From the NCBI RefSeq assembly GCF_009914755.1, contig NC_060939.1: 64,000 nt of DNA, one strand, 5' to 3'. The number at the start of each line of letters is the position of its first letter. Position 1 is the stretch's first letter. Under the pieces are notes generated by a model. The model ran no database searches. It saw only the letters and a program-made list of their open reading frames with translations, and had not been told where the DNA came from. Made by a program: the position numbers and the translations under genes. Shown here piece by piece: positions 22,388 through 23,886 of this stretch. This stretch comes from the human T2T-CHM13v2.0 reference genome, Homo sapiens.

Positions 22388-23886
22388 GTGGCATGATCTC
22401 AGCTTACTGCAATCTCTGCCTCCCAGGTTCCAGCGATTCTCTTGCCTCAGCCTCCAGAGTAGCTGGGATTACAGGTGCCCACCACCATGCCCAGCTAACT
22501 TTTAAAATATTTTTAGTAGAGATGGGGTTTCACCGTGTTGGCTGAGCTAGATTCAAACTCCTGACCTCAAGTGATCTGCCCACCTTGGCCTCCCAAAGTG
22601 CTTGGATTACTGGCATGAGCCATCACACCTGGTCCATATTTTGGTTTTAAAAATGTTTTTGCAACTCTTATCTCATTGTCTCCTTTTCCCCCAAACCTTG
22701 GGAGGAAGGTAGTAGAATATGTTAATGATGCATATTATCAAATATACATATAACAGCAGTATTGCTATTTCTGAAGGGCAATATGGCACAGGGGTTAGGT
22801 GTGTGGGCTCATTAATCTGCCGGGGTTGTGGTCTGACTTTCTCAGTTACTAGCTGTGTAATCCCAGACAATCCACTTTACCTCTCTGTGCCTCAGTTTTC
22901 TCACCTGTTAAATGGAGAAAGTTAAAAATAGTATATATCTCATATGGATATTATAAGGATAACATTATAGGTACTTATATGAGAAAATTCACCTAAAACA
23001 GAACAGTGCACATAGTAATTGCTTGATAAATATGATGATGATTATTATTTCTATTTTAGCATGGGGGCACTAATTCTGAGGAATTGAGCACTCAATGAAT
23101 TCAATCACATTTATTGAGTCCCTTCAATGTTCCAGACAGTGTGCAAGAGTTATGGTTGATGGTGCTCAGAGGATAATGATGGAGACAGGGACAAACCAGA
23201 TCATTCTTATTTCTGATGTGGCCAAAGTGCAGGCAAAGACATGTCAGGGAAATCATGGGTACACCGAGGAGGGCAGACAGTGTGGGGAGGGGCGTCCTGG
23301 GGGAGGTGGCTGTTGAAAGCAGGATATTCCAGGAAACCAGTCTGGATGGTGGTAAGAGGTGGGAATGGGCAGAGGGATATGGGCTCGCAGGGGCTTGCAG
23401 GAGCTCACAGGGGCTTGGAAGAATTTGCTGGAGGTGGCAGAAGAGGTGATGAGCACAGTGGAGTCAAGTCTGAGGCAGGGATGAACTGGGACAACAGAGA
23501 GGGGCATTGTCCAGTTCAGAACCTGAGCTCTCTTGTTCTTTTTTTTAAGGAGCACAGGTGATCCTTAAAGATCCAAGAGTGAATTCTAAGCAAGGGAGGG
23601 TTTCAGTTGTCTAAGCAAGTCCTGCAATCAAAGGTTCCAGGTCAGCAAGGCCAAAGGTGACAGCAGGTCCTCATATCCTTTCTGGAGAAGCTCGGAGTAC
23701 TCAATAGCCCACACCCACTCACTTCTCCCTTCTCACGGGGACACTCTAGTCCATGTCCTGTCTGCCTACCTCCCTGCCTCCCCTCGCCAGTGGCCCTGCA
23801 CCCAGGCGTGACTCAGTTGGCCCAGATGAACTCTGCAGGCTCCAGCAATGCCATGGTTACACTGATTTCAAAACAACATCTGGAAT
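22388..23886 (+). repeat. Derived copy of a 1.5 kb local duplication (source 42383-43893), inserted into the L1
   Basis: Colinear match at offset ~20005; duplicated ORF-track peptides (23216 vs 43221, 23241 vs 43246); L1 sequence resumes on both sides. Confidence 0.96.

What the first reader, a model, noticed from the sequence alone, without database searches (positions are those of the whole stretch)
22388..23886. 1.5 kb templated insertion copied from 20 kb downstream into an L1, with no retrotransposition hallmarks
Seen: 22388-23886 duplicates 42383-43893 in direct orientation. It starts mid-Alu and shares private Alu variants (cctccAgagtagc, ggctgagct, gtgcttgg). It has no polyA and no TSD. 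The L1 reads ...taattaggt [insert] tgtcacttcttgtttttgttgcaattg. Against the recalled L1 consensus (taattaggtcccacttgtcaattt) only ~5 nt are lost, with 1-2 nt junction microhomology. Inference: a double-strand break was patched by synthesis from a nearby cis template (SDSA/MMBIR-like, or a fragment of IL16 pre-mRNA, since the donor lies in the same transcription unit).
Basis: partly seen in the sequence, partly recalled or inferred. Interest (0 to 1): 0.75.

Follow-up and report, generated by a model that had tools for sequence, protein, structure and literature searches.

The report
Small copied insertion in IL16 intron
A 1.5-kb piece of an IL16 intron was copied long ago into an old L1 repeat 20 kb upstream by break repair rather than by retrotransposition, which is a clean but ordinary example of a known kind of small duplication.

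Summary
Window 22388-23886 is a direct copy of 42383-43893: 93.8% identity with gaps, 95.3% without. The non-Alu part has only these two copies in the whole genome.

The copy splits an old L1. In 43 of 48 informative L1 copies, exactly 6 nt lie where the insert sits. So 5-6 nt of L1 were lost, with 0-2 nt and 1 nt of junction microhomology. There is no target-site duplication, poly(A) or poly(A) signal.

The 42-kb copy is the donor. Its Alu is complete, while the copy's Alu is cut off at the junction.

The L1 is 9-12% from its relatives' majority base. The two copies differ by 3.4% outside the Alu. The L1 is therefore much older than the insertion, which I place roughly in the ape or Old World primate stem.

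Divergence falls from 5' to 3' and includes a 233-nt identical run. This suggests later gene conversion.

Most likely mechanism: DNA-templated repair of a break or stalled fork from the nearby cis template, with end joining. An RNA (pre-mRNA) template cannot be excluded.

It fits both the "class 2 templated sequence insertion" type and the conventional small segmental duplication. Interest is low.

The parts
21400..22389 (+). Left part of the old L1 (ORF2 region) that received the insertion
   Evidence: Covered by at least 8 of 58 fetched L1 loci, mean depth 45.6. It ends at ..TTAATTAGGT, as other L1 copies read at this point. It differs from the majority base of related copies at 36-37 of about 400 sites.
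22388..23886 (+). Inserted copy (A) of the IL16-intron segment, about 1497-1499 nt. Bases 22388-22389 (GT) and 23886 (T) could come from either the L1 or the donor.
22388..22632 (-). Truncated Alu at the left end of the copy. It lies in minus orientation. Its poly(A) tail and about 37 nt of its 3' end are missing, cut off at the L1 junction.
   Evidence: Aligned to the donor Alu and to 41 other Alus. Of 238 sites, 19 are derived and shared with the donor.
22833..22960 (.). Old dispersed-repeat segment inside the copy. I recognise it as MIR-like from memory. It is the only part with other matches in the genome.
   Evidence: all 38 other genomic matches fall within query positions 187-321, at 72-95% identity over about 40-130 nt.
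23199..23431 (+). Run of 233 nt identical between copy and donor, holding 3 intact CpGs. It is a candidate tract of later gene conversion.
   Evidence: A run this long arose in 110 of 20000 permutations of the non-Alu mismatches.
23887..25049 (+). Right part of the same L1, colinear with the left part except for the 5-6 nt lost
   Evidence: It differs from the majority of related copies at 48 of 399 sites (set 2) and 64 of 400 sites (set 1).
42330..42634 (-). Complete donor Alu: T-run at 42330-42345, with the body running to about 42634. The left breakpoint of the duplication lies inside it at 42383.
   Evidence: sequence; below-threshold Metazoa_SRP match on the minus strand at 42343-42490..
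42383..43893 (+). Donor segment (B) in the IL16 intron, 2.7 kb downstream of exon 39304-39716. It is intact, with unique flanks.
   Evidence: Exon positions come from the hub's gene table.

Best explanation
This is a small dispersed intrachromosomal duplication.

What happened: a 1.5-kb stretch of an IL16 intron (42383-43893) was copied, and the copy was placed 20 kb upstream in the same orientation. The stretch runs from the middle of an antisense Alu through unique sequence. The copy landed inside an L1 that was already old, replacing 5-6 nt of it.

Most likely mechanism: a chromosome break or collapsed fork in the L1 was repaired by DNA synthesis on the nearby cis DNA template. The candidate routes are an SDSA-like patch, or two template switches of the FoSTeS/MMBIR type. 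The ends were joined with little or no homology.

What came later: the two copies diverged, and gene conversion probably re-homogenised the 3' half.

Shown here: the duplication, its direction, the exact junctions, the lack of L1 target-primed hallmarks, the copy number of two, and that the L1 predates the insertion.

Inferred: the break, the DNA nature of the template, the gene conversion and the date.
For: Duplication and junctions.

Direction: the copy interrupts L1 sequence that is colinear to within 6 nt in 43 of 48 informative L1 copies, and in a second L1 of the window. The donor Alu is complete, while the copy's Alu stops at the junction.

Not target-primed retrotransposition: no TSD, no poly(A) and no poly(A) signal, and a small target deletion instead of a duplication.

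Not a repeat family: only two genomic copies.

L1 older than the insert: the L1 flanks are 9.1-9.3% (left) and 12-16% (right) from the majority base of their relatives. The two copies differ by 43 of 1254 sites outside the Alu, which is about 1.8% per lineage.

No error-prone synthesis visible: in the Alu part, changes derived in the copy number 15 and changes derived in the donor number 12.

DNA template favoured (inference): a donor 20 kb away in cis, in direct orientation, is what proximity-dependent template switching predicts. Reported RNA-derived patches come from all over the genome; they mapped to 18 of 24 chromosomes (PMC5110952, parts 1-2 read).

Gene conversion: 30 of 565 mismatches in the 5' unique part against 13 of 689 in the 3' part (Fisher p=0.001). 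The 233-nt identical run arose in 110 of 20000 permutations.
Against: Nothing in the sequence tells DNA from RNA as the template.

The microhomologies are weak. By my own calculation, P(k) = (k+1)(1/4)^k(3/4)^2, at least 2 nt is expected at about 16% of random junctions and at least 1 nt at about 44%. They do not single out MMBIR over plain end joining.

The MMBIR-linked templated insertions surveyed in PMC8421209 (passages read) were short, with templates within 100 bp. That tool looked only for such events. A 1.5-kb patch from 20 kb away is outside that survey.

Outside the Alu, the donor has A where the copy has G at 12 sites, against 3 sites the other way (p=0.035, post hoc). This is the direction that A-to-I editing of a sense IL16 transcript would give.

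The divergence gradient could have causes other than gene conversion. Within the 3' half alone the long run is not unusual (1210 of 20000 permutations).
Confidence: 0.65

Rival explanations
1. RNA-templated patch. A fragment of unspliced IL16 pre-mRNA (intron RNA) was reverse-transcribed at a break in the L1. The enzyme would be L1 ORF2 reverse transcriptase acting without its endonuclease, or another reverse transcriptase. Synthesis would be primed by 1 nt of pairing at the right end and joined at the left end. This corresponds to an endonuclease-independent, class 2 templated sequence insertion.
For: The donor lies in the same transcription unit and on the sense strand (hub gene table).

The junctions carry the class 2 features listed in PMC5110952 (parts 1-2 read): no TSD, no poly(A), a microdeletion and microhomology. 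That review reports that experimental patches were enriched for transcribed sequence and were reduced more than three-fold by reverse-transcriptase inhibitors.

Outside the Alu there is an excess of donor-A/copy-G over donor-G/copy-A differences, 12 against 3.
Against: No RNA mark is present: no splicing, no poly(A) and no untemplated bases.

The Alu is the natural editing substrate. There, only 1 of 15 copy-derived changes is A to G, and copy-derived and donor-derived changes are balanced, 15 against 12.

About 5 of the 12 A/G sites look like CpG decay in the donor.

The experimental patches were 73-414 bp and came from many chromosomes (PMC5110952). A 1.5-kb patch from 20 kb away in cis would need locally tethered nascent RNA.
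Confidence: 0.2
2. Capture of a free DNA fragment. A 1.5-kb double-stranded piece was ligated into a break in the L1 by non-homologous end joining, with no synthesis at the break. Such a piece could be released from an over-replicated or broken sister region.
For: The junctions fit plain end joining: loss of 5-6 nt, 0-2 nt of microhomology and no filler. The donor is intact, so a copy was used rather than the original.
Against: The sequence gives no way to separate this from copying at the break. A free fragment has no reason to keep the donor's orientation, although that outcome has even odds, and less reason to land close by in cis.
Confidence: 0.1
3. The insert entered together with the L1. 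The L1 reverse transcriptase switched from L1 RNA to local IL16 RNA and back while the L1 was being inserted, giving a chimeric retrocopy.
For: The L1 resumes only 6 nt from where it stopped, as a back-and-forth template switch could give.
Against: The ages disagree. The L1 flanks are 9-16% from the majority of their relatives. The copy and the donor are only about 1.8-2.8% per lineage apart outside the Alu. Simultaneous origin predicts copy-donor divergence of about twice the L1's own divergence.
Confidence: 0.02
4. Assembly artefact, or a member of a dispersed repeat family.
For: None found.
Against: The copies differ at 70 sites and by 5 indels, so they are not a collapsed or duplicated assembly of one locus. 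The genome holds only two copies of the non-Alu part.
Confidence: 0.01

Closest known systems
Class 2 templated sequence insertions (TSI/TSIP; Onozawa & Aplan, PMC5110952, parts 1-2 of the text read)
   Same: A stretch templated from elsewhere in the genome sits at what looks like a repaired break. The donor is left intact. There is no TSD, poly(A) or poly(A) signal. The junction shows a microdeletion and microhomology. Intronic sequence is among the reported donor types.
   Different: Those were found as pairs of junctions between non-homologous chromosomes, so cis events like this one were outside their screen. They are polymorphic, whereas this one is old and presumably fixed. The experimental ones were 73-414 bp, against 1.5 kb here. 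Their RNA origin is argued from experiments that cannot be repeated on this locus.
Intrachromosomal segmental duplication (convention: longer than 1 kb and over 90% identical; PMC11925013, passages read)
   Same: It measures 1.5 kb at 93.8% identity on the same chromosome, with one breakpoint inside an Alu. Alu enrichment at duplication breakpoints is described there, citing Bailey et al. 2003. Non-allelic gene conversion between such copies is also known.
   Different: It sits at the very bottom of the size range. It is a single isolated pair. The acceptor site is an L1 rather than an Alu, so Alu-Alu recombination did not make it.
FoSTeS/MMBIR template switching
   Same: The structure is what two template switches between sites 20 kb apart on one chromosome would give: direct orientation, clean junctions and short microhomology.
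   Different: The microhomology is no more than chance gives. There is no further complexity and no excess of copy-specific mutations in the Alu part. The MMBIR-linked insertions surveyed in PMC8421209 were short and templated within 100 bp.
L1 target-primed retrocopies (class 1 TSIP, processed pseudogenes) and endonuclease-independent L1 insertion
   Same: A non-L1 sequence was inserted at a new site. The endonuclease-independent form also lacks a TSD and poly(A) and comes with small target deletions.
   Different: All three target-primed marks were tested and are absent. The inserted sequence is not L1 and shows no RNA processing.

Membership tests
Class 2 templated sequence insertion | Inserted sequence is templated from another genomic place, and the donor stays intact | tested here: met
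   The donor at 42383-43893 is intact and the genome holds two copies.
Class 2 templated sequence insertion | No target-site duplication, no poly(A) tract, no cryptic poly(A) signal | tested here: met
Class 2 templated sequence insertion | End-joining marks at the junctions (microdeletion, microhomology or untemplated bases) | tested here: met
   5-6 nt of L1 are missing in comparison with 48 L1 copies. Microhomology is 0-2 nt on the left and 1 nt on the right. There are no untemplated bases.
Class 2 templated sequence insertion | Derived from reverse-transcribed RNA (proposed for the class) | not testable with these tools
   The donor is intronic and transcribed according to the gene table. 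No RNA mark is present. The A/G asymmetry could not be polarised.
Segmental duplication | Longer than 1 kb and over 90% identical | tested here: met
   1509 aligned columns at 93.8% identity. The definition is as given in PMC11925013.
Segmental duplication | Fixed in the population | not tested
   No population or pangenome data are available here. The 5-6% divergence makes fixation likely.
L1 target-primed retrocopy (class 1 TSIP) | Target-site duplication of at least 5 bp | tested here: not met
   The target shows a 5-6 nt loss instead.
L1 target-primed retrocopy (class 1 TSIP) | Poly(A) tail following a poly(A) signal | tested here: not met
L1 target-primed retrocopy (class 1 TSIP) | Insertion at a TTTT/A-type site | tested here: not met
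   The site reads TTAATTAGGT/CCCACT/TGTCAA in other L1 copies. There is no T-run or A-run at the break.
FoSTeS/MMBIR templated insertion | Microhomology at each template switch | tested here: inconclusive
   0-2 nt and 1 nt, which is within chance expectation by my own calculation.
FoSTeS/MMBIR templated insertion | Template nearby in cis | tested here: met
   The donor is 20.0 kb away in direct orientation.
DNA transposon or dispersed repeat | Many copies, terminal repeats | tested here: not met
   Two copies only. No tandem repeats were found in 22300-24000.

The most novel reading that the evidence does not exclude
The patch was copied from nascent IL16 intron RNA held at its own gene. That would make it a fixed germline example of transcript-templated break repair in cis. 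On this reading, the excess of donor-A/copy-G differences on the sense strand (12 against 3 outside the Alu) is a trace of A-to-I editing or of reverse-transcriptase error in the template.
Probability: 0.12. Interest if true: 0.55.

Novelty: new member of a known kind. Interest (0 to 1): 0.22.

Why it matters
It matters little on its own. Its value is as a clean, base-resolved natural example of a kilobase-sized, non-retrotransposition "copy and paste" between two sites of one gene. The empty site can be reconstructed from dozens of L1 relatives.

Such cases are missed by screens that look only for interchromosomal donors or for very short nearby templates. A genome-wide count of them, with orientation and distance, would show how much proximity-dependent templated repair adds to small segmental duplications.

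The insertion touches no IL16 exon. No coding or RNA-family signal was found in it.

Tried and rejected
- **Timed-out script:** I re-ran it in two parts.
- **Polarising the non-Alu differences:** I tried to use other genomic copies. A search with donor 43040-43560 found only the two copies, so this failed.
- **Error-prone synthesis in the copy:** rejected for the Alu part. Copy-derived changes number 15 and donor-derived changes number 12.
- **L1 flanks as two different elements:** the loci chosen for the left flank match it at 89-91% but match the right flank at only 69-83%, which raised this possibility. I rejected it for two reasons. The flanks are colinear to within 6 nt in 43 of 48 copies. 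Loci chosen for the right flank match both flanks about equally (roughly 76-87% left, 83-88% right). The imbalance is therefore mostly a selection effect.
- **Rfam scan of the donor at E up to 0.1:** it gave only below-threshold Alu-related matches (SRP, mir-1268, mir-3135) and one weak match I take as chance (Vax2os1_3, E=0.074).
- **Coding potential:** three ORFs of 84-106 aa overlap the copy, and none matches Pfam.
- **Tandem repeats:** none in 22300-24000.
- **Literature on this duplication:** none of my four literature searches named IL16 or this locus, so I make no claim about whether this pair is in print. It meets the criteria of the segmental-duplication annotation and may be listed in such tracks, which I could not see.

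Full report
**Observation**

A repeat scan and blastn show that window 22395-23886 matches 42390-43893 in direct orientation. The match spans 1509 columns at 93.8% identity with E=0. A global alignment gives 1416 matches, 70 mismatches and 5 indel events covering 24 columns.

Alu-like sequence in the copy extends 7 nt further left, to 22388 (GTGGCAT before GATCTC). A pattern scan found 10 Alu-motif sites in the window, namely 8 other Alus plus the copy and the donor, and they mostly read ..GCAGTGGC.. at this point.

A self-comparison of the whole window finds no other pair of at least 150 nt at 88% identity or more. In the whole genome (the T2T human assembly, searchable as G000), the non-Alu part has exactly these two full-length places. 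The other 38 matches cover only query positions 187-321, a short old repeat that I recognise from memory as MIR-like. A second search with donor 43040-43560 found only the two copies.

**Direction and target**

The donor Alu at 42330-42634 is complete. It has a T-run at its left end, so it lies in minus orientation. A below-threshold SRP match on the minus strand agrees with this. The copy's Alu is cut off at the junction.

The copy sits inside L1 sequence, which spans 21400-22389 and 23887-25049. I fetched 58 other L1 loci from the genome, using the left or the right flank as the query, and mapped both flanks onto each. Of the 48 informative loci:
- 43 have exactly 6 nt between the end of the left flank and the start of the right flank;
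- 3 have 5 nt;
- 1 has 4 nt;
- 1 has an atypical 6-nt word.

The commonest word is CCCACT, seen in 22 copies. The context is ..TTAATTAGGT CCCACT TGTCAATTTTTG... A second L1 in this same window is uninterrupted over the point.

The window reads ..TTAATTAGGT | GGCATGATC..(insert)..CTGGAAT | TGTCACTTC... The insertion therefore replaced 5-6 nt of L1. The last T of the insert could come from either source, giving 1 nt of microhomology. The GT at 22388-22389 fits both the L1 and the canonical Alu, giving 0-2 nt. The range is open because the donor today reads G where the copy has T.

By my own calculation for random joints, such short overlaps are expected often: at least 1 nt at about 44% of joints and at least 2 nt at about 16%.

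**Retrotransposition marks**

None is present. There is no poly(A) or A-rich end in either orientation. No AATAAA or ATTAAA lies near the donor ends. There is no duplication of the target; the longest word shared by the 40-nt flanks is 6 nt and lies away from the junctions. There are no untemplated bases, no tandem repeats and only two copies.

**Ages**

The L1 flanks differ from the majority base of related copies at 36-37 of about 400 sites on the left. On the right they differ at 48 of 399 or 64 of 400 sites, depending on which set of relatives is used.

The two copies differ as follows:

| Part | Mismatches | K2P |
|---|---|---|
| All non-Alu sequence | 43 of 1254 | 0.035 |
| 22633-23197 | 30 of 565 | 0.056 |
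| 23198-23886 | 13 of 689 | 0.019 |
| Alu part | 27 of 232 | 0.129 |

In the Alu part, 11 of the 27 mismatches are CpG-type transitions.

The L1 is thus several times older than the insertion. That rules out an origin of the insert during the L1's own retrotransposition.

I polarised the Alu part against 41 other Alus. Of 238 sites, 19 are derived and shared by both copies, 15 are derived in the copy only, 12 in the donor only, and 2 differ in both. So the Alu was already old when it was copied. The copy also carries no excess of changes of the kind error-prone synthesis would leave.

For dating I compared with primate divergence figures that I recall and did not compute here: human-orangutan about 3%, human-macaque about 6%, human-marmoset about 11%. 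On that scale the event falls after the split from New World monkeys, in the catarrhine or ape stem. With 1.0-1.5e-9 substitutions per site per year, the non-Alu figures give 12-28 Myr. A slower rate would give more.

**Heterogeneity**

Divergence falls from 5' to 3'. The 5' and 3' unique parts differ significantly (Fisher p=0.001). The run of 233 identical bases at 23199-23431, with three intact CpGs, arose in 110 of 20000 permutations of the non-Alu mismatches. Within the 3' half alone, however, it arose in 1210 of 20000, so there it is not unusual.

Gene conversion between the copies after the duplication is the simplest reading. It is known for paralogues over 90% identical (PMC11925013, passages read). 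I could not test it without outgroups.

**Mechanism**

The anatomy is that of a templated patch at a break: an intact donor, a small target deletion, near-blunt joints and no L1 endonuclease marks. This is the definition of class 2 templated sequence insertions (PMC5110952, parts 1-2 read). At 1.5 kb and 93.8% identity, it also meets the convention for a segmental duplication (PMC11925013).

I favour a DNA template at 0.65. The candidate routes are SDSA-like copying, or two template switches of the FoSTeS/MMBIR type. The reason is that a donor 20 kb away in cis and in direct orientation is what proximity-dependent copying gives. Reported RNA-derived patches come from many chromosomes.

The RNA rival, using IL16 intron RNA and a reverse transcriptase acting at a break, remains at about 0.2.
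- For it: the donor is in the same transcription unit. Outside the Alu, the donor has A where the copy has G at 12 sites, against 3 the other way (p=0.035, post hoc). T/C differences are balanced, 10 against 9.
- Against it: about 5 of the 12 sites look like CpG decay in the donor. In the Alu, where editing would concentrate, only 1 of 15 copy-derived changes is A to G.

Capture of a free DNA fragment by end joining cannot be told apart by sequence; I give it 0.1.

**Function**

No function is indicated. Neither copy overlaps an IL16 exon in the hub's gene table. Rfam gives only below-threshold Alu-related matches. Three chance-sized ORFs have no Pfam match.

**Verdict**

The event belongs to a described class, so interest is low. 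The decisive work is comparative: ape and monkey orthologues would date the event, polarise the differences and test gene conversion. None of this could be done with the collections at hand.

Noticed in passing
window 22633-23886 vs 42641-43893: Among the differences outside the Alu, the donor has A where the copy has G at 12 sites, against 3 sites the other way. T/C differences are balanced, 10 against 9. About 5 of the 12 sites look like CpG decay in the donor. Binomial p=0.035, post hoc.
   Followed up: partly
window 23199-23431: A run of 233 nt is identical between the two copies and holds 3 intact CpGs. The 5' unique part is 5.3% diverged by comparison. Gene conversion is likely but untested.
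   Followed up: partly
window 21133-21265 and 26472-26604: An inverted Alu pair, 133-nt arms, 74% complementary and 5.2 kb apart, brackets the insertion site. It is probably too diverged and too far apart to have caused a break.
   Followed up: no
window 16563-18491: A second, different L1 copy in the same orientation covers the same L1 region without interruption. It is 76-77% identical to the interrupted one and serves as an in-window empty-site comparison.
   Followed up: yes
window 23887-24286 vs 21990-22389: The right L1 flank is somewhat further from the majority of related copies than the left flank: 48 of 399 or 64 of 400 sites, against 36-37 of about 400. L1 loci picked by the left flank match the right flank poorly. 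This is probably a mix of selection effect and subfamily differences.
   Followed up: partly
window 42600-42606, 42740-42750, 42818-42821, 43794-43795: Indels arose after the duplication. The donor Alu lacks about 6 nt that the copy keeps. The donor has 11 extra nt (an AT-rich local repeat), 4 extra nt and 2 extra nt relative to the copy.
   Followed up: no
window 28053-28395: Two adjacent 151-nt copies lie 192 nt apart at 81% identity (family D6). A similar 192-nt spacing appears at 25069/25261 (family D2).
   Followed up: no
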